Positions 19,491-52,520 of a DNA stretch of 64,000 nt are shown here, one piece after another. Position numbers and translations under genes: made by a program. Source of the DNA: a bacterium (GTDB lineage Bacteria > Patescibacteriota > Microgenomatia > UBA1400 > UBA12108). Position 1 is the first letter of the stretch, and each line of letters starts with the position of its first letter. The notes beneath the pieces were generated by a model that was not told the origin of the DNA, did no database searches, and saw nothing but the letters and a program-made list of their open reading frames with translations. The stretch covers positions 30,479 to 94,478 of the forward strand of contig JBAXNV010000001.1 of assembly GCA_037133595.1 (NCBI GenBank), read 5' to 3'.

Positions 19491-20771
19491 ATGCTCAAAA
19501 GACTCAAAACTCTTACCTCCTCCTCTGGTGCCATCTCTCTATTTTTTATAAGCGGTGGCAACATTATCTCGACCATAATCTCGGCGCTTGCACTAATCAT
19601 TTTTTCGCGCTTTCTTGGCCCAGCCGAGTTTGGTGTTTTCTCGGCAGGCTTTGCACTTATGCAGATTATTATCCGCGTTGTCGATATGGGGGTAAACACA
19701 GCAGCCGAGCGCACAATAGCCCAAAAGTACGAGACTAGCGAAAGGCCAACAGCCATCTCATACATGCAACTAGTCCTCTGGATTAGATCGTTTGCAATCA
19801 CAATCGTATTGATTATCGGCCTTCTCTTTTCCCAGTCAATCGCCACTTGGCTTGGCATCACCAATCTATTAATCATCCGTCTCGCTTTTCTTACCTCTTT
19901 TGGTACGGTTTTTTACGAGTATGTAGCACTATTACTTCAGTCCACCCAGGCATTTATGTATGTTGCGCGCATGGCAATTGCTCAGGCATCAGCCAAGCTA
20001 ATTTTTGGCCTTATTCTTATTTGGCAACACGCATTAACCGCTACTTCTGCGCTAGCTATCTACGGTCTTATGCCCTTTTTTGGGGCTCTCTCTTCGCTTC
20101 GTCGCATTCCACTCACTTCCTTTGACTTGCCGCCAAATTGGCAAAAGCTCGGGAAGACTCTTGGGCTTACAGCTCGCTGGACAGCGATCAATATGATTGG
20201 GGTAACTCTCGCCGATAATATCGACATCCTGTTGGTGCAAAAGCTCCTTGGCAGTTATCAAACAGGTATCTGGGGCGCAGCGGGGCGCCTTGCACTATTT
20301 GCAAGCTTAATCGGGTTGTCCATGACGACAGTGCTTAGCATTCGCGTTGCGCGATACAACAACAAAAAAGATCTTGACGTCTATCTTGCCAAAGCCAAAT
20401 GGCTCGCACTTGGTGGCGCTACTCTCGTACTACTTGGCATTCCGCTTGCTGGGCTAGGCCTCTGGCTAACAGTCGGCCCAGAATACCTCGTAGGTACCAC
20501 TCCACTTATTCTTATGCTTGTTGCAGTTGCACTAGCTACATCCGCAGCTCCATATACCGCGCTCTTCTATCTTTTCAATCGCCCAGAGTATTATGCCTAT
20601 GTTGGCATCATCCTCGCAGTAGGGATAACGGTTGGCAATTGGTTTGCAATCCCTATCTATGGGCTAATTGGAGCAGGCACGGTAAAAATAGTTGTTCGCG
20701 CCGCAATTCTCGTATTTACACTTTTCTACGCGAGGTCTAGCTATCTTGGCCAAGTAAAGTATAGTAAGTAG
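19491..20771 (+). CDS. Wzx-type oligosaccharide flippase (MOP superfamily polysaccharide biosynthesis protein)
   Basis: 426 aa with about 12 TM helices and a Wzx-like N-terminus; glycan locus context. Confidence 0.6.
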   Translation: MLKRLKTLTSSSGAISLFFISGGNIISTIISALALIIFSRFLGPAEFGVFSAGFALMQIIIRVVDMGVNTAAERTIAQKYETSERPTAISYMQLVLWIRSFAITIVLIIGLLFSQSIATWLGITNLLIIRLAFLTSFGTVFYEYVALLLQSTQAFMYVARMAIAQASAKLIFGLILIWQHALTATSALAIYGLMPFFGALSSLRRIPLTSFDLPPNWQKLGKTLGLTARWTAINMIGVTLADNIDILLVQKLLGSYQTGIWGAAGRLALFASLIGLSMTTVLSIRVARYNNKKDLDVYLAKAKWLALGGATLVLLGIPLAGLGLWLTVGPEYLVGTTPLILMLVAVALATSAAPYTALFYLFNRPEYYAYVGIILAVGITVGNWFAIPIYGLIGAGTVKIVVRAAILVFTLFYARSSYLGQVKYSK

Positions 20772-21777
20772 ATCTACCAGCTCCTTTGCGTTCAATTATT
20801 TCCATACCAATCAGTCTTTGGAAATCAAGGGTGCGGGTAGCTTTTGCGCGAGTAGTGAGTTTGGCATAATCTCTATCGGTAATGTATCCATTCGTTTTAA
20901 TAAAGCCAATGATCTTATTATGATGAATCTCTAGGTTTGTTTCTGGCGAATCGGTGCGCTTTGGCAACATTTTTTGGACTCGCAATAATTCATCAATCAA
21001 ACCGGCGGTAAAATATTCAAGCCACGTGGTAAAGTCGATAGATTCTTTCAATTCATTGTAATCTCCATATTCACCTACAGTTTGAAAATATTTTGTCACA
21101 TTTTGGTTGTAGTAATTCTCAAAGCTAAACAAATTAAACGTATTAAGACCCATTTTTGCGAGCAACACCTTCGTTATCAAACGAGTAGTTCTACCGTTGC
21201 CATCCATAAATGGGTGAATAATAACCATTTGCTTATGAAAAATACCAGCCAAAATCAATGGATCAACCTTGGTTATATTTTTTTTAATATATTTAATCAA
21301 ATCCAACGTAAGGCTCTCAACAACATCAACCTCGGGTGGTAAATATACAATCTTTCCAGTTCTTGGGTCATTCACGACAACTGGCATTTTGCGTAGTCTA
21401 CCAGACTCTTGTTTGGGGAGTAGGTTTTGGGTAACTTGCTTGTGAGTCTGCAAGATAAGGGGGAGCGAAACCTCGATCTCGTTTGACTCAATTAATCTAC
21501 ATAAATTCTCAATAGCTAAGTTGTAGTTAATAACTTCACGCTCACTATCGCGGATATTGGTAGGTCGTGATTTTAGGAGTTGTTTTACTTCGGTAAGGGG
21601 CAGGGGATTGCCTTCGATACTGGTAGATGCAAAAGTCGAAACTTCCCTGGCAATAATCTCAAACTCCAAAAGAACCAATCTTGGGAATCGTCTATCGTTG
21701 AGGTCGTGAACGAGCGAATTTACCTTAGAAATATTTGCAAGTAACTGGTTCGAGATCAAAAATTTTGGCTCAAACAT
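20737..21777 (-). CDS. Fic family protein, class II (internal inhibitory helix)
   Basis: HPFMDGNGRTTRL Fic motif; STSIEGN matches [ST]xxxE[GN]; start set at the conserved MFEPKFLISNQLL. The listed TTG start at 21822 would translate the tandem repeats. Confidence 0.8.
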   Translation of the reverse strand: MFEPKFLISNQLLANISKVNSLVHDLNDRRFPRLVLLEFEIIAREVSTFASTSIEGNPLPLTEVKQLLKSRPTNIRDSEREVINYNLAIENLCRLIESNEIEVSLPLILQTHKQVTQNLLPKQESGRLRKMPVVVNDPRTGKIVYLPPEVDVVESLTLDLIKYIKKNITKVDPLILAGIFHKQMVIIHPFMDGNGRTTRLITKVLLAKMGLNTFNLFSFENYYNQNVTKYFQTVGEYGDYNELKESIDFTTWLEYFTAGLIDELLRVQKMLPKRTDSPETNLEIHHNKIIGFIKTNGYITDRDYAKLTTRAKATRTLDFQRLIGMEIIERKGAGRSTYYTLLGQDS

Positions 21778-21779
21778 AG

Positions 21780-21811
21780 TAGTCGAATAATAGTCGATTA
21801 TTAGTCGATTG
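21780..21811. repeat. three tandem 10-11 bp direct repeats (TAGTCGAATAA / TAGTCGATTAT / TAGTCGATTG) abutting the Fic start codon
   Basis: Read directly from the sequence; the same unit appears at 51064-51093 upstream of the second Fic gene. Confidence 0.7.
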
Positions 21812-21828
21812 TCAAGTAACAAGCCATC

Positions 21829-22563
21829 TTACACAATCCCCTCATACACCTTGGTCGCTTCTTCAATATCACCAAAGAACAATTGCTTGCCATTCTGTAG
21901 CACAAGCCCTTTGGTACAGTACTTTTTGACCATATCGGGGCTATGGCTCACCATTACCATAGTACTCCCAAGCTTCTTAAACTCGGCCATGCGAGCCAGA
22001 CACTTTTGCTGAAAGCTCTGATCTCCCACGGCCAGGATCTCATCAATTAGTAGTATATCGGGAGTTTCGGCAACAGCTACCGAGAAGGCGAGGCGCATAT
22101 ACATTCCCGAGGAATAGTGTTTGATCGGCTGGTCCATAAAGTTCTCAAGCTCGGCAAATTCGACAATATTATTGTATAGCTTATCCATATCTTTGCGCTT
22201 GATCCCGAGTATCGAGCCATTAAGGTATACATTCTCGCGCCCCGTAAGTTCTGGGTGAAATCCTGCACCAAGCTCGATAAGCGGCGCCACACGCCCATTC
22301 ACAGTTATTCGCCCATCAGAGGGCTTGGTAACACCCGCAATGATCTTAAGTAGGGTTGACTTGCCGCTACCGTTTCGCCCCATAATCCCCAGTGATTCTC
22401 CTTTGGCTAGTTCAAATTCAATCGAGGATAGTGCCGCAAAGTTGGTTTTGGTTTCTTTGCCAGAGAACAGGGCAGGGAGAAACTCCTTAAACGTTCGCTG
22501 TTTTTGCAGGCTATATTCTTTGCTTACGTTTTCAGCTTGTATGGCGCATGTTGGGTTAGACAT
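21829..22563 (-). CDS. ABC transporter ATP-binding protein, Wzt/TagH-like polysaccharide exporter
   Basis: Walker A GRNGSGKST; signature YSSGMYMRL; Walker B LLIDE; start at MSNPT, 4 nt after the permease stop. Confidence 0.8.
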   Translation of the reverse strand: MSNPTCAIQAENVSKEYSLQKQRTFKEFLPALFSGKETKTNFAALSSIEFELAKGESLGIMGRNGSGKSTLLKIIAGVTKPSDGRITVNGRVAPLIELGAGFHPELTGRENVYLNGSILGIKRKDMDKLYNNIVEFAELENFMDQPIKHYSSGMYMRLAFSVAVAETPDILLIDEILAVGDQSFQQKCLARMAEFKKLGSTMVMVSHSPDMVKKYCTKGLVLQNGKQLFFGDIEEATKVYEGIV

Positions 22564-49998: not shown

Positions 49999-51063
49999 TC
50001 ACGCAGCATATTCTTTGCGAGCATTCTTAATTGCATGTGTTTCATTTAAAACATAATATGTAGTAGGGCCGCCAGATTTTCTCTCGATCAGCCCAAGGTC
50101 GACTAGATTGCGGAAATCCATAATTCTAGTTGAGTCAGCTCTCTTGGTAAGTTTGACATACTCCTTGTCACATATTCGCCCATGTGCAGTAAGATAGTTA
50201 AGAATCAACTGATGATAATCCTCAAGTCTGTCGTTAGAAATTAACATATCGAGTAGCTTTTGGATTCGCGATAATTCATCTACAATCCCATCTGTAAAAT
50301 ATTCGAGCCAAAACGTAAAGTCGGTATTATCTGCTATCTCATAATAATCCCCGTACTCTCCAACAGTAGCAAAGTACTTGGTCACATTTTGGTTATAATA
50401 ATTCTCAAAACTAAATAGGTTGAAGGTATTCATGCCCAAGTCTGATAATAATACCTTTGTCAAAAGTCTGGTAGTCCGACCATTTCCATCCATAAATGGG
50501 TGAATTAGCACCATTTGTTTGTGAAAAATACCAGCCAGGATAAGTGAGTCAAGCTCACCGCGATTCAATTTAATATAAGCAATAAGGTCTTGGAGCAACT
50601 GAGGAACATCACCAAAATCGGGTGGTATAAATGCAATCTGTCTCGTTTTTGGGTCGTTGACCACAACGGCACGCTTTCTTAAGTGTCCATTATCTGATTT
50701 GGATAATAGGCCACTGGTCACAACTTTCTGCACCTTGAGTACAAGAGGAAAATCAATTGTCAGGGCTCCTGTCTTAGCTTCCATTTCCAGTTCAATCAAC
50801 GCCTGGTTGTAGTTCAGCACCTCCAGTTCGCTATCTCTTACATTTTCTGGTTTCCCTTTGATCAGTTTTTTAACTTCAGTTAGGGGTAAGGGATTTCCTT
50901 CAATAGAGGTAGAGGCATGGGTAGAGAGATCTTGTGCAGCTCGCCACATCTCCATATACACTAGGCGGGGCAACTTTTTTCCATTAAGATTAGTCCTAAT
51001 TTCTGCAATCTTCTTGATGTTCTCTAGAAGTTTATTAGAGATGGAATATTTTGGACTAAACAT
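49999..51063 (-). CDS. Fic family protein, class II (paralogue of 20737..21777)
   Basis: HPFMDGNGRTTRLLTKVLL; STSIEGN inhibitory motif; start set at the conserved MFSPKYSISNKLL. Confidence 0.8.
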   Translation of the reverse strand: MFSPKYSISNKLLENIKKIAEIRTNLNGKKLPRLVYMEMWRAAQDLSTHASTSIEGNPLPLTEVKKLIKGKPENVRDSELEVLNYNQALIELEMEAKTGALTIDFPLVLKVQKVVTSGLLSKSDNGHLRKRAVVVNDPKTRQIAFIPPDFGDVPQLLQDLIAYIKLNRGELDSLILAGIFHKQMVLIHPFMDGNGRTTRLLTKVLLSDLGMNTFNLFSFENYYNQNVTKYFATVGEYGDYYEIADNTDFTFWLEYFTDGIVDELSRIQKLLDMLISNDRLEDYHQLILNYLTAHGRICDKEYVKLTKRADSTRIMDFRNLVDLGLIERKSGGPTTYYVLNETHAIKNARKEYAA

Positions 51064-51093
51064 TAGTCGATTATAGTCGATTATAGTCGATTG
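51064..51093. repeat. three perfect tandem 10-bp repeats (TAGTCGATTA x2 + TAGTCGATTG) abutting the Fic start codon
   Basis: Read directly from the sequence; on the gene strand they read CAATCGACTATAATCGACTATAATCGACTA-ATG, giving TATAAT-like hexamers. Confidence 0.7.
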
Positions 51094-51125
51094 GTCAAAC
51101 CAATAACACATGTTAAAATAAGTTC

Positions 51126-52520
51126 ATGACTACTCAACCAACTTCGCTTAACGATATCGTATCTCTGTGCAAAAGGCGCGGTTTTATGTTCCCAGGTAGC
51201 GACATCTACGGAGGTCTAGCCAATACTTGGGACTATGGTCCACTCGGTGCCGCTCTTAAGAAAAATCTCAAAGACTTGTGGTGGAACACCTTTATCGATA
51301 ACAGGGACGACATGGTAGGACTCGATACGGGTATCATTCTCAACAGCAAAGTCTGGGAGGCATCAGGTCATTTATCAGGATTCGCCGATGCCATGATCGA
51401 CTGCAAAGTTTGCCGTGCCAGGACTCGTGCCGACCATCTTATCGAGGATTACCTAGAGAAAAAGGGTACTCCCGAGAAGGTAGAGGGCAAGAGTATGGCA
51501 GAGCTAACTGCCATGGTTGTTGATAACAAGATCAAATGTCCAACTTGTGGCAATAGCAACTTTACCGATGTGCGCTCTTTTAATCTGCTTTTCCCGACCA
51601 AAATGGGTATCCTCGCAGATACCGAGAGTACAGTTTATCTTCGCGGCGAGACGGCGCAAGGGATCTTTATCAACTTCAAAAATATAATGGATAGTAGTCG
51701 GGTCAAGCTCCCATTTGGCGCTGGCAACATCGGCAAGAGCTTCCGTAACGAGATTACCAAAGGCCAGTTTATCTTTCGCACTGTTGAGTTTGAGCAGGGT
51801 GAGATCGAGTTTTTCTTTGATCCAACAGTTAGCAACTGGGAGGAGCTTTTTGACAAGTGGCTATCCTCGATGCAAACATTCCTACTTGAGACTCTTGGGA
51901 TCAAGTCCGAGAATCTTCGCGTAAGAGAGCACGAAGATGCCGAGAGAAGCTTTTATAGCAAGCGCACAGTCGATATCGAGTACCAATATCCTTTTGGGTT
52001 TAAAGAGCTTTGGGGTCTTGCTTACCGCACCGATTACGATCTCTCCCGTCACCAGGAGTTCTCTGGTAAGGATCTCACAGTAATGCGACAAGATGGGACC
52101 AAGTTCTTGCCTCATGTTATCGAACCAGCCGTTGGTATAGATCGCCTCATTCTTATGATATTGTGCGATAGCTATTGGGCCGATATCGAGCACAACCGTG
52201 TAGTTCTTAGGCTCAAGCCAGCTCTTGCTCCCTACAAAGTCGCTGTCTTCCCATTACTAAAAAATAACGAAGAATTGGTCGGCAAAGCCAAAGAAGTTTA
52301 CGATAGTCTCAAAACAAAATATCGCACTGCCTGGGATGATCGCGGCAATATCGGCAAAAGATATTACTACCAAGACGAGATGGGTACGCCATTTTGCATA
52401 ACAGTTGACCACCAAACGCTTGAGGATGGCACTGTTACTGTTCGCGATAGGGATACTACAGCTCAAGAGCGGATAAATATTTCAGCCCTAGATACCTATC
52501 TTTGTGGTAAATTAGAATAA
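51126..52520 (+). CDS. glyQS: glycine--tRNA ligase, dimeric (alpha2) class II type
   Basis: RRGFMFPGSDIYGGLANTWDYGPLGAALKKNLKDLWW N-terminal signature; 464 aa. Confidence 0.9.
   Translation: MTTQPTSLNDIVSLCKRRGFMFPGSDIYGGLANTWDYGPLGAALKKNLKDLWWNTFIDNRDDMVGLDTGIILNSKVWEASGHLSGFADAMIDCKVCRARTRADHLIEDYLEKKGTPEKVEGKSMAELTAMVVDNKIKCPTCGNSNFTDVRSFNLLFPTKMGILADTESTVYLRGETAQGIFINFKNIMDSSRVKLPFGAGNIGKSFRNEITKGQFIFRTVEFEQGEIEFFFDPTVSNWEELFDKWLSSMQTFLLETLGIKSENLRVREHEDAERSFYSKRTVDIEYQYPFGFKELWGLAYRTDYDLSRHQEFSGKDLTVMRQDGTKFLPHVIEPAVGIDRLILMILCDSYWADIEHNRVVLRLKPALAPYKVAVFPLLKNNEELVGKAKEVYDSLKTKYRTAWDDRGNIGKRYYYQDEMGTPFCITVDHQTLEDGTVTVRDRDTTAQERINISALDTYLCGKLE

What the first reader, a model, noticed from the sequence alone, without database searches (positions are those of the whole stretch)
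20737..21828. Two paralogous class-II Fic genes each immediately preceded by tandem 10-11 bp direct repeats (copy 1)
Both Fic genes (20737-21777 and 49999-51063, minus strand) begin with a conserved MF(E/S)PK(F/Y)(L/S)ISN(Q/K)LL. Directly 5' of each ATG sit three tandem repeats, TAGTCGA(A)TTA on the plus strand and CAATCGACTA-TAATCGACTA-TAATCGACTA-ATG on the gene strand. The repeat junctions form TATAAT-like hexamers 6-9 nt before the ATG, consistent with a leaderless transcript and/or an iterated operator for a dimeric/multimeric regulator. The Fic C-terminal winged-helix domain could autoregulate. The six-frame track's longer ORFs (a TTG start at 21822 and an ATG at 51111) simply translate these repeats as IIDY.
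Basis: seen in the sequence. Interest (0 to 1): 0.6.

Follow-up and report, generated by a model that had tools for sequence, protein, structure and literature searches.

The report
Self-operator in Fic gene promoter
The three short repeats in front of each Fic gene are a real, strongly conserved DNA-binding site built into the gene's own promoter. The Fic enzyme's DNA-binding tail almost certainly reads it to control its own production, which is a new variant of a self-control scheme already known for a few Fic enzymes.

Summary
Each Fic gene is directly preceded by three phased copies of AATCGACTA, spaced 11 bp in copy 1 and 10 bp in copy 2. The boxes are interleaved with an 11/12-match sigma-70-type promoter: -35, 17-bp spacer, -10. 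The -10 ends 9 nt (copy 1) or 6 nt (copy 2) before the ATG, so the mRNA is leaderless or nearly so.

The layout cTTGAC-AATCGNCTA-x3 recurs before orthologues in 78 of 80 genomes found by protein similarity alone (Patescibacteria, Anaerolineales). It is better conserved than the coding sequence.

The variable box base N co-varies almost perfectly with one residue, position 316, in the predicted recognition helix of the Fic C-terminal winged helix:
- Thr/Arg at 316 goes with non-T boxes (55 sequences).
- Ala/Asn at 316 goes with T boxes (53 sequences).
- There are no discordant cases, across about 23 switches on the tree.

So the Fic protein very probably binds its own promoter, most likely as an autorepressor. 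Copy 2 belongs to a small subfamily in which the 10-bp spacing is conserved.

Self-regulation by Fic-wHTH proteins is known (CccR, SoFic). A triple direct-repeat operator, its residue-base code and subfamily-specific spacing are new. Nothing here has been tested experimentally.

The parts
20737..21777 (-). Fic gene copy 1 (346 aa): class II Fic with a C-terminal winged helix. The true start is the ATG at 21777, not the TTG at 21822.
   Evidence: Pfam Fic, E=3.5e-15. M1, F2 and P4 are invariant in 36 homologues. In-frame stops lie upstream in 60 of 66 orthologues.
20755..20928 (-). Coding region for the winged helix-turn-helix (residues 284-341). The recognition helix is residues 312-324. The specificity residue Thr316 is the codon at 20830-20832.
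   Evidence: AlphaFold2 model: H284-296, H301-307, H312-324, strands 328-331 and 338-341. Residue 316 is the column with the highest mutual information with the box base.
21810..21815 (-). -35 hexamer TTGACA of copy 1. Its last A is the first base of box 1.
   Evidence: Promoter scan, 11/12 match with a 17-bp spacer. TTGAC is 90-100% conserved in 78 genome loci.
21802..21810 (-). Box 1, AATCGACTA (copy 1).
21791..21799 (-). Box 2, AATCGACTA (copy 1), lying in the promoter spacer. Its last two bases begin the -10.
21787..21792 (-). -10 hexamer TATTAT of copy 1, ending 9 nt before the ATG.
21780..21788 (-). Box 3, ATTCGACTA (copy 1). It spans from the -10 to the predicted transcription start and ends 2 nt before the ATG.
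49999..51063 (-). Fic gene copy 2 (354 aa), 56% identical to copy 1. It belongs to a small subfamily whose recognition helix reads RADSTRI.DF.
51093..51098 (-). -35 hexamer TTGACC of copy 2.
   Evidence: Promoter scan, 11/12 match with a 17-bp spacer.
51064..51092 (-). Three identical AATCGACTA boxes at 10-bp spacing (51084-51092, 51074-51082, 51064-51072). Box 3 abuts the ATG.
   Evidence: The 10-bp spacing is conserved in 5 of 5 relatives of copy 2.
51070..51075 (-). -10 hexamer TATAAT of copy 2, ending 6 nt before the ATG. The predicted transcription start is the A of the ATG.

Best explanation
Each array is a three-site operator embedded in the core promoter of a stand-alone Fic gene.

What the sequence shows directly:
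- Box 1 abuts or overlaps the -35.
- Box 2 fills the 17-bp spacer and supplies the first bases of the -10.
- Box 3 covers the stretch from the -10 to the transcription start, which lies 0-3 nt before the ATG. The mRNA is therefore leaderless.

[quoted passage not shown] Recognition-helix residue 316 contacts base pair N.

What is inferred from geometry:
- Three domains sit head-to-tail on one face of the DNA, one helical turn apart, much as PhoB/OmpR-type winged helices sit on phased direct repeats.
- Occupying these sites excludes RNA polymerase. The potentially toxic AMP-transferase would then hold its own synthesis at a low set point (negative autoregulation).

The two paralogues in the window belong to subfamilies with different operator phasing, 11 bp and 10 bp.
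For: 1. Promoter. Both copies match the sigma-70 consensus at 11 of 12 positions with a 17-bp spacer. The -10 ends 9 nt (copy 1) or 6 nt (copy 2) before the ATG.

2. Conservation. 78 of 80 orthologous loci found by protein similarity alone carry three boxes at 11/11-bp spacing. The consensus cTTGACAATCGNCTAATAATCGNCTATAATTCGNCTA is 70-100% conserved at most positions. The only exceptions are N and a 50-60% position in each of the last spacer and box 3. Sequence just upstream of the -35 is only 30-40% conserved. The proteins are 60-74% identical.

3. The boxes are not coding.
- The distance from box 3 to the ATG is 0-3 nt in 63 of the 80 scored arrays (78 genome loci plus the two window copies).
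- Lineages with a 15-28 nt leader place an AGGAGG-type ribosome-binding site after the intact array.
- 60 of 66 orthologues have in-frame stops upstream of the ATG.

4. Readout by the Fic protein itself.
- Of 346 alignment columns, residue 316 has the highest mutual information with the box base: 1.03 bit against 0.72 for the next column.
- For T versus non-T boxes the figures are 0.94 bit against 0.34.
- Thr/Arg316 goes with non-T boxes (55 sequences) and Ala/Asn316 with T boxes (53 sequences). None is discordant.
- There are about 23 parsimony switches on a tree built from residues 1-300.
- 19 sequences have a nearest neighbour of the other box class. In the 14 of these where both partners carry Thr/Arg or Ala/Asn, residue 316 follows the box class.

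5. Position of residue 316. It lies in helix 312-324, the third helix of a predicted winged helix.

6. Association with Fic. In a metagenome scan for two boxes only, 43 of 120 hits have this Fic directly downstream, and 7 more at contig ends carry a Fic-type array or start. Most other hits lack a -35 and a third box.

7. Precedent.
- CccR (PDB 7XUX) represses its own promoter through its C-terminal HTH (PMC9755527).
- SoFic binds the 100 bp upstream of its own gene (bioRxiv 10.64898/2026.07.09.737422).
- The model matches both structures over its full length.

8. Subfamily spacing. All 5 relatives of copy 2 that were examined have boxes phased at 10 bp.
Against: - There are no experimental data: no binding assay, transcription-start map or expression measurement.
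- Covariation shows that residue 316 and base N are coupled. It does not show the sign of regulation.
- Three sites fit awkwardly with the dimers formed by SoFic, CbFic2 and CccR. The oligomeric state of this family is unknown.
- Residues Ile, Val and Ser at 316 (9 sequences, including copy 2 with Ile) do not map cleanly to one base.
- The Anaerolineales orthologues keep the boxes and the TATAAT but lack a clear -35.
- A few full arrays sit before other genes: L101 deaminase, L121 transporter, L176 ATPase.
- The metagenome loci were selected with a DNA pattern that fixed the non-N box bases.
Confidence: 0.75

Rival explanations
1. The Fic winged helix does bind the boxes, but the main role is not repression. 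The operator could act as a DNA cofactor that assembles Fic molecules and switches their (de)AMPylation activity, or it could act positively on transcription.
For: For Coxiella CbFic2, DNA binding induces dimerisation and stimulates AMPylation more than 20-fold (PMC10628234). SoFic and EcSofic need dimerisation for activity. Three phased sites would bring several Fic molecules together. The covariation evidence supports binding equally under this reading.
Against: The sites overlap the -35 edge, the spacer, the -10 and the start site of a promoter that already has consensus hexamers and an optimal 17-bp spacer. That is the classic position for a repressor, not an activator. CbFic2 binds DNA without sequence specificity. 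Here specificity is tightly maintained at one locus only, the protein's own promoter. The two roles are not mutually exclusive.
Confidence: 0.12
2. A separate transcription factor encoded elsewhere binds the boxes, and the Fic winged helix has another job.
For: No direct binding data exist. A few complete arrays precede non-Fic genes: L101, L121 and L176.
Against: The box base tracks one residue of the Fic protein's own recognition helix with no discordance across about 23 switches. No conserved neighbouring regulator exists, because the flanks differ in every locus. Phased pairs are absent from the rest of the 64-kb window.
Confidence: 0.06
3. The repeats are only promoter architecture (sigma or RNA polymerase contacts, DNA curvature or slippage products), with no dedicated binding protein.
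For: The boxes coincide with the -35 edge, the spacer and the -10. The 10-11-bp phasing equals one helical turn. The repeats of copy 2 are perfectly identical, as expected of recent slippage.
Against: Other leaderless promoters in the same window have -10 hexamers but no such boxes. RNA polymerase contacts would not make base N change together in boxes 1 and 2 and together with residue 316 of a different protein. The array stays intact in lineages where a leader separates it from the gene.
Confidence: 0.05
4. The repeats are translated as an N-terminal extension (IIDY repeats) from the upstream TTG at 21822 or ATG at 51111. Gene callers annotated copy 1 this way (361 aa).
For: The frame is open in both window copies. 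The public protein cluster P0001 is the 361-aa form.
Against: 60 of 66 orthologues have an in-frame stop in the 45 nt before the ATG. The distance from box 3 to the ATG varies by 0-3 nt. Most homologues are 342-346 aa and start MF.PKY.
Confidence: 0.01

Closest known systems
CccR of Yersinia pseudotuberculosis (PDB 7XUX), a class II Fic with a C-terminal HTH that represses its own promoter
   Same: - Same architecture: N-terminal inhibitory helix, Fic core and C-terminal DNA-binding domain. Foldseek gives E=1.2e-8 and TM 0.56 over the full length; phmmer gives E=3.9e-8.
- The operator overlaps the -35/-10 region of the protein's own promoter.
- The logic is negative autoregulation of a toxic AMP-transferase (PMC9755527).
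   Different: - CccR binds two inverted 10-bp repeats separated by 26 bp, as a back-to-back dimer. Here there are three direct repeats of a 7-bp core at 11-bp or 10-bp spacing.
- Sequence identity is about 20%.
- CccR is a T6SS-secreted effector of a proteobacterium. These genes are stand-alone in Patescibacteria and Chloroflexota, with a leaderless transcript.
- Binding here is inferred, not shown.
SoFic of Shewanella oneidensis / EcSofic (SoFic anti-phage defence system)
   Same: - Class II Fic with a C-terminal winged helix.
- The PADLOC SoFic model matches residues 49-339 at E=2.6e-42.
- The structures 3EQX and 3ZEC match over the full length.
- SoFic binds the 100 bp upstream of its own start codon.
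   Different: - The NCBIfam SoFic equivalog scores 67 bits against a cut-off of 550, so this is not an orthologue.
- The SoFic operator sequence is not defined.
- EcSofic has a downstream 47-aa antitoxin, AS1 (PMC12249575). Here convergent genes overlap or closely follow both stop codons, leaving no room for one.
- There is no defence-island context here.
- Phage defence by this family has not been tested.
CbFic2 of Coxiella burnetii (PDB 8CIL)
   Same: Class II Fic with a winged helix. Foldseek gives E=9e-10. DNA binding through the C-terminal region is coupled to oligomerisation and activity (PMC10628234).
   Different: CbFic2 binds DNA without sequence preference and is proposed to act on host histone H3. 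Here binding is inferred to be sequence-specific and directed at the protein's own promoter.
PhoB/OmpR-type winged helices on phased direct repeats (the pho box: 7-bp repeats with 4-bp A/T-rich spacers, 11-bp period). This comparison rests on my own knowledge and was not tested here.
   Same: A 7-bp conserved core plus a 4-bp A/T-rich spacer, repeated head-to-tail once per helical turn. This implies tandem, same-face binding of winged-helix domains.
   Different: The protein family is unrelated, with no receiver domain. There are three sites rather than two. The sites lie inside the core promoter (a repressor position) rather than replacing a -35 (an activator position).

Membership tests
Class II Fic proteins (Engel et al. 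2012 classification) | [quoted passage not shown] | tested here: met
   H188-PFMDGNGRTTR-199. H188, F190, D192, G193, N194, G195, R196 and R199 are invariant in 36 homologues. Pfam Fic scores 57 bits against a cut-off of 24.
Class II Fic proteins (Engel et al. 2012 classification) | Inhibitory motif (S/T)xxxE(G/N) on the same polypeptide, N-terminal to the Fic core | tested here: met
   S51-T-S-I-E55-G56 is invariant and aligns with the inhibitory-helix region of FICD in phmmer alignments.
SoFic-like Fic-wHTH architecture | [quoted passage not shown] | tested here: met
   The AlphaFold2 model shows three helices plus a two-strand wing at residues 284-341, pLDDT about 75-90. Full-length Foldseek matches to 4RGL, 8CIL, 3EQX/3ZEC and 7XUX. 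A weak Pfam HVO_A0114 winged-helix hit occurs in homologue P0008: 26.2 bits against a cut-off of 27.6.
SoFic-like Fic-wHTH architecture | Homodimerisation through the N-terminal helix | not testable with these tools
   A helix at residues 10-27 is predicted. No multimer prediction or experiment was available.
SoFic equivalog (NCBIfam NF046030) | Score above the curated equivalog cut-off | tested here: not met
   67 bits (copy 1) and 51.8 bits (copy 2) against a cut-off of 550.
SoFic anti-phage defence system | Match to the PADLOC SoFic protein model | tested here: met
   E=2.6e-42 over residues 49-339 for copy 1, and E=1.1e-38 for copy 2.
SoFic anti-phage defence system | Protection against phage; defence-island context; downstream small antitoxin AS1 | tested here: inconclusive
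   Protection cannot be tested here. The neighbours are polysaccharide-synthesis and ABC-transporter genes, proS and recO. There is no room for a downstream small gene. No relatives were found on viral contigs.
CccR-type autorepressing Fic | The protein's own HTH binds its own promoter at the -35/-10 region | tested here: inconclusive
   Strong indirect support comes from the covariation of box base and residue 316 with no discordance and from the overlap of boxes with the promoter. There is no binding experiment.
CccR-type autorepressing Fic | Operator made of two inverted repeats separated by about 26 bp | tested here: not met
   There are three direct repeats at 11-bp or 10-bp spacing and no inverted partner.
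Leaderless mRNA | Transcription start at or within a few nt of the start codon; no Shine-Dalgarno sequence | tested here: inconclusive
   The -10 ends 6 or 9 nt before the ATG and there is no space for a ribosome-binding site. The same geometry occurs at 7 other genes in the window, and only 11 of 58 starts have an SD-like motif. The transcription start has not been mapped.

The most novel reading that the evidence does not exclude
This Fic family may carry a natural, evolvable self-recognition code with two elements: one recognition-helix residue (316) paired with one operator base, and subfamily-specific operator phasing (10 bp versus 11 bp). The code would keep co-resident paralogues from cross-regulating each other.

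Two observations fit this. In the window, the paralogues share the box sequence but differ in spacing. In genome JAHJQJ01, the two paralogues differ in box base and in residue 316 (L008: C boxes with Thr; L065: T boxes with Ala).

The operator could also serve as the scaffold that assembles and licenses the AMP-transferase. Transcriptional self-control and enzyme activation would then be coupled on one 33-bp DNA element.
Probability: 0.25. Interest if true: 0.7.

Novelty: new variant of a known kind. Interest (0 to 1): 0.55.

Why it matters
- Fic AMP-transferases are potentially toxic, and how cells keep them in check is an active question. Self-repression through a C-terminal winged helix has been shown for one protein (CccR) and suggested for one more (SoFic).
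- This locus extends the idea to a very large family: more than 4,400 protein clusters at E<=1e-20. The family is spread through the Patescibacteria, which are largely uncultivated and for which almost no regulatory sites are known.
- The locus supplies a precisely defined operator, a one-residue/one-base specificity rule and a spacing variant. Each can be tested directly with gel shifts and reporter fusions in E. coli.
- It corrects the start codon of copy 1, which is annotated 15 codons too long in public data.
- It adds evidence that this lineage transcribes many genes as leaderless mRNAs.

Tried and rejected
- **Chance repeats:** rejected by TRF, shuffles and cross-genome conservation.
- **Structured RNA:** no Rfam family matches anywhere in the window at gathering thresholds. 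Direct repeats do not form a hairpin.
- **N-terminal coding extension:** rejected.
- **Phage origin or mobile phage cargo:** no relatives on IMG/VR viral contigs.
- **Conserved partner gene (antitoxin or regulator) next to Fic:** none found. Both window copies face convergent genes at their 3' ends, and the flanks differ among loci.
- **Regulon of the same boxes elsewhere in the window:** none.
- **Other hits of the two-box pattern in metagenomes:** minisatellites (L131, L172, L195, L198) and an unrelated recurrent AAATCGACTACAAATCGACTACAC element near integrase or tRNA genes (L085, L150, L151, L158, L182). These are not part of this system.
- **Pfam assignment of the C-terminal domain alone:** only sub-threshold hits.
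- **Literature on this family in Patescibacteria:** none found.
- **Not attempted:** protein-DNA or multimer structure prediction, for which no tool was available.
Full report
**1. The observation**

Reading both regions on the gene strand confirms the arrays.

Copy 1 is TTGACAATCGACTAATAATCGACTATTATTCGACTACT followed by the ATG at 21777. It has three boxes of AATCGACTA, the third being ATTCGACTA, with an 11-bp period.

Copy 2 is TTGACCAATCGACTATAATCGACTATAATCGACTA followed directly by the ATG at 51063. It has three identical boxes with a 10-bp period.

Tandem Repeats Finder lists both arrays. Single boxes are no more frequent in the window than in shuffles, 17 against 14 expected. Exact phased pairs exist only at these two promoters, and the five other pairs need mismatches and match the 3.5 expected by chance.

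Both proteins carry only a Pfam Fic domain. They are 56% identical and share the MF.PK(F/Y) start.

**2. Promoter anatomy**

A consensus scan gives an 11/12 sigma-70-type match at each array with a 17-bp spacer:

| | -35 | -10 | Distance from -10 to ATG |
|---|---|---|---|
| Copy 1 | TTGACA | TATTAT | 9 nt |
| Copy 2 | TTGACC | TATAAT | 6 nt |

- Box 1 overlaps (copy 1) or abuts (copy 2) the -35.
- Box 2 lies in the spacer and donates the first two bases of the -10.
- Box 3 runs from the -10 to the expected transcription start.
- No space remains for a ribosome-binding site.

This is normal for the genome. Eight of 58 predicted starts, including copy 2 and the divergent proS gene, have a -10-like hexamer 6-7 nt before the ATG. 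That compares with 2.8% of all ATG trinucleotides. Only 11 of 58 starts have any SD-like motif.

**3. Conservation elsewhere**

The Fic family is large, with 4,467 protein clusters at E<=1e-20.

A protein-based scan of one genome per species returned 80 loci. These were mostly Patescibacteria (Gottesman-, Woese-, Levy-, Davies-, Shapiro-, Roizman-, Pace- and Berkelbacteria), plus Anaerolineales and one Dormibacteraceae MAG.

In 78 of these loci the gene is preceded by three boxes at 11/11-bp spacing. The consensus is cTTGACAATCGNCTAATAATCGNCTATAATTCGNCTA. It is 70-100% conserved at most positions. The only exceptions are N and a 50-60% position in each of the last spacer and box 3. Conservation falls to 30-40% just upstream of the -35. 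The proteins themselves are only 60-74% identical.

Three observations show that the array is a promoter or operator and not coding sequence:
- The distance from box 3 to the ATG is 0, 1, 2 or 3 nt in 63 of the 80 scored arrays (78 genome loci plus the two window copies).
- Lineages with a leader of 15-28 nt (Berkelbacteria, Moranbacteria and others) keep the array intact and place AGGAGG-type sites after it.
- 60 of 66 orthologues have an in-frame stop in the 45 nt before the ATG.

The 361-aa public form of copy 1 (P0001) is therefore an over-extension.

**4. Who reads the boxes**

Base N of the core TCGNCTA varies between loci but tends to be the same in boxes 1 and 2 of one locus. The commonest combinations across the three boxes are TTT (28 loci) and AAA (23 loci).

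*Mutual information.* I aligned the proteins and computed mutual information between the box class and every column. Residue 316 of copy 1 ranks first, at 1.03 bit against 0.72 for the next column.

I then added 40 more full-length genes from a metagenome scan, giving 120 sequences:

| Residue 316 | Box class | Sequences |
|---|---|---|
| Thr or Arg | non-T (A, C, G) | 55 |
| Ala or Asn | T | 53 |
| Discordant | | 0 |
| Ile/Val/Ser, or mixed boxes | unclear | 12 |

For the binary split of T against non-T, residue 316 carries 0.94 bit and the next column 0.34.

*Phylogeny does not explain the signal.*
- On a neighbour-joining tree built from residues 1-300 only, the box class changes about 23 times and the residue class about 24 times.
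- 19 sequences have a nearest neighbour of the other box class. One example is L030 and L133, which are 83% identical.
- In the 14 of these where both partners carry Thr/Arg or Ala/Asn, residue 316 follows the box class.

*Position of residue 316.* The AlphaFold2 model (mean pLDDT 78) places it in helix 312-324. This is the third helix of a winged helix-turn-helix: helices 284-296, 301-307 and 312-324, with wing strands 328-331 and 338-341. The neighbouring residues R310, A311, T314, R315, D318 and F319 are invariant, which fits the invariant CG and CTA of the box.

I conclude that the Fic protein's own winged helix reads the boxes. This is an inference from covariation, not a measurement.

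**5. Specificity of the association**

- 43 have this Fic directly downstream.
- 7 more are cut by a contig end but carry a Fic-type array or start (L092, L093, L102, L105, L111, L185 and others).
- Most of the rest lack both a -35 and a third box. These are chance matches, minisatellites or an unrelated recurrent element.

Complete arrays before something else are rare:
- L090 and L126 have a 79-aa and a 132-aa ORF, resembling a Phd-VapC toxin-antitoxin pair (not checked against Pfam), inserted between the array and the Fic gene.
- L101, L121 and L176 are followed by a deaminase, a transporter-like ORF (not checked against Pfam) and an AAA ATPase.
- L168 (a Fic with an N-terminal HTH) and L190 (a RhuM-family protein) are preceded by similar boxes.

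**6. Copy 2**

Copy 2 was the only 10/10-bp array among the first 82 arrays examined. Its closest relatives form a small clade of about 13 clusters at 65-72% identity.

All five relatives that I fetched have boxes at 10-bp spacing, for example cTTGACT-AATCGACTAC-TATCGACTAC-TATCGACTA-ATG. All have the same promoter geometry and a distinct recognition helix, RADSTRI.DF.

The 10-bp phasing is therefore a subfamily trait. The two paralogues of the window share the box sequence but not the spacing. In another genome, JAHJQJ01, the two paralogues differ instead in box base and residue 316: L008 has C boxes with Thr, and L065 has T boxes with Ala. This is compatible with insulation between paralogues, but that idea is untested.

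**7. Mechanism**

*Shown by the sequence:* a consensus promoter whose spacer, -10 and start site are occupied by three phased boxes.

*Inferred from covariation:* the Fic winged helix binds them.

*Inferred from position:* binding excludes RNA polymerase, giving negative autoregulation of a potentially toxic enzyme.

*Inferred by analogy (my own knowledge):* the layout of a 7-bp core plus a 4-bp A/T spacer once per helical turn resembles PhoB/OmpR-type tandem binding on one face of the DNA.

*Unknown:* the stoichiometry (three sites against the dimers seen in relatives), any effect of DNA on enzyme activity, and the AMPylation target.

**8. Comparison with known systems**

The proteins are class II Fic enzymes by both defining motifs. 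They have the SoFic-like Fic-wHTH architecture.

| System | Known behaviour | Source |
|---|---|---|
| CccR (7XUX) | Represses its own promoter through inverted repeats AGATAATCAT-N26-ATGATAATCT | |
| SoFic | Binds the 100 bp upstream of its own gene; site undefined | |
| CbFic2 | Binds DNA non-specifically, which stimulates its activity | |
| EcSofic | Anti-phage toxin with a downstream antitoxin AS1 | |

The window proteins match the PADLOC SoFic model at E=2.6e-42. They fall far below the NCBIfam equivalog cut-off, at 67 bits against 550. They have no room for an AS1-like gene and do not sit in a defence island.

They therefore work like CccR but are not members of the CccR or SoFic orthologue groups, and the operator design differs. 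I found no paper on this family in Patescibacteria.

**9. Verdict**

It is a new variant of a known kind, namely autoregulating Fic-wHTH proteins. The new points are a precisely defined triple direct-repeat operator, a one-residue/one-base specificity rule and subfamily-specific spacing. Interest is moderate, because the concept has precedent and nothing is experimentally verified. The predictions are unusually sharp and cheap to test.

Noticed in passing
window 16676, 18855, 19491, 31836, 43646, 51126, 61350 (gene starts): Seven other genes have a TATAAT-like hexamer ending 6-7 nt before their ATG, and only 11 of 58 predicted starts have any SD-like motif. This genome appears to use leaderless mRNAs routinely.
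   Followed up: partly
window 51092-51126: The divergent prolyl-tRNA synthetase gene (start 51126) has a promoter-like site, TGGTCA-16-TAAAAT. Its -35 overlaps box 1 of the copy-2 array by one base, at 51092. A protein bound at the array could also affect proS transcription.
   Followed up: no
window 21829-21831 and 20737-20771: Copy 1 begins only 51 nt after the stop of an ABC-transporter ATPase gene, and no terminator was detected between them. Its 3' end overlaps a convergent polysaccharide-synthesis gene (19491-20771) by 35 nt.
   Followed up: no
L090 629-1700 and L126 1092-2140: A 79-aa and a 132-aa ORF, resembling a Phd/YefM antitoxin and a VapC PIN toxin (not checked against Pfam) and preceded by their own promoter-like site, are inserted between an intact Fic array and the Fic gene.
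   Followed up: partly
L168 1683-2765 (-) and L190 17-1137 (-): Similar phased boxes precede two other kinds of gene: a Fic protein with an N-terminal rather than C-terminal HTH (28% identical to the Fic core) and a RhuM-family protein (Pfam E=2.7e-109). The box type may be shared more widely.
   Followed up: partly
L085, L158, L182, L150, L151, L082, L084, L149: A different recurrent element, AAATCGACTACAAATCGACTACAC, lies near integrase or tRNA genes or lipoprotein-like ORFs. It has no -35 or third box and no Fic downstream, and its nature is unknown.
   Followed up: partly
L038, L046, L048, L051: In some Daviesbacteria-like loci the array lies 50-77 nt upstream of the ATG. In L046 and L051 a short duplicate of the box-3 end (aatacgtctat) sits directly before the ATG, as if a segment had been inserted into the original leaderless junction.
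   Followed up: no
L201 1263-2739: A relative of copy 2 lies on the same contig as a second Fic gene, and a Trp-repressor-family gene sits between them. The Trp-repressor neighbour recurs in L202.
   Followed up: no
L066 upstream of 91: One Anaerolineae locus carries five phased boxes instead of three, so the array length is not absolutely fixed.
   Followed up: no
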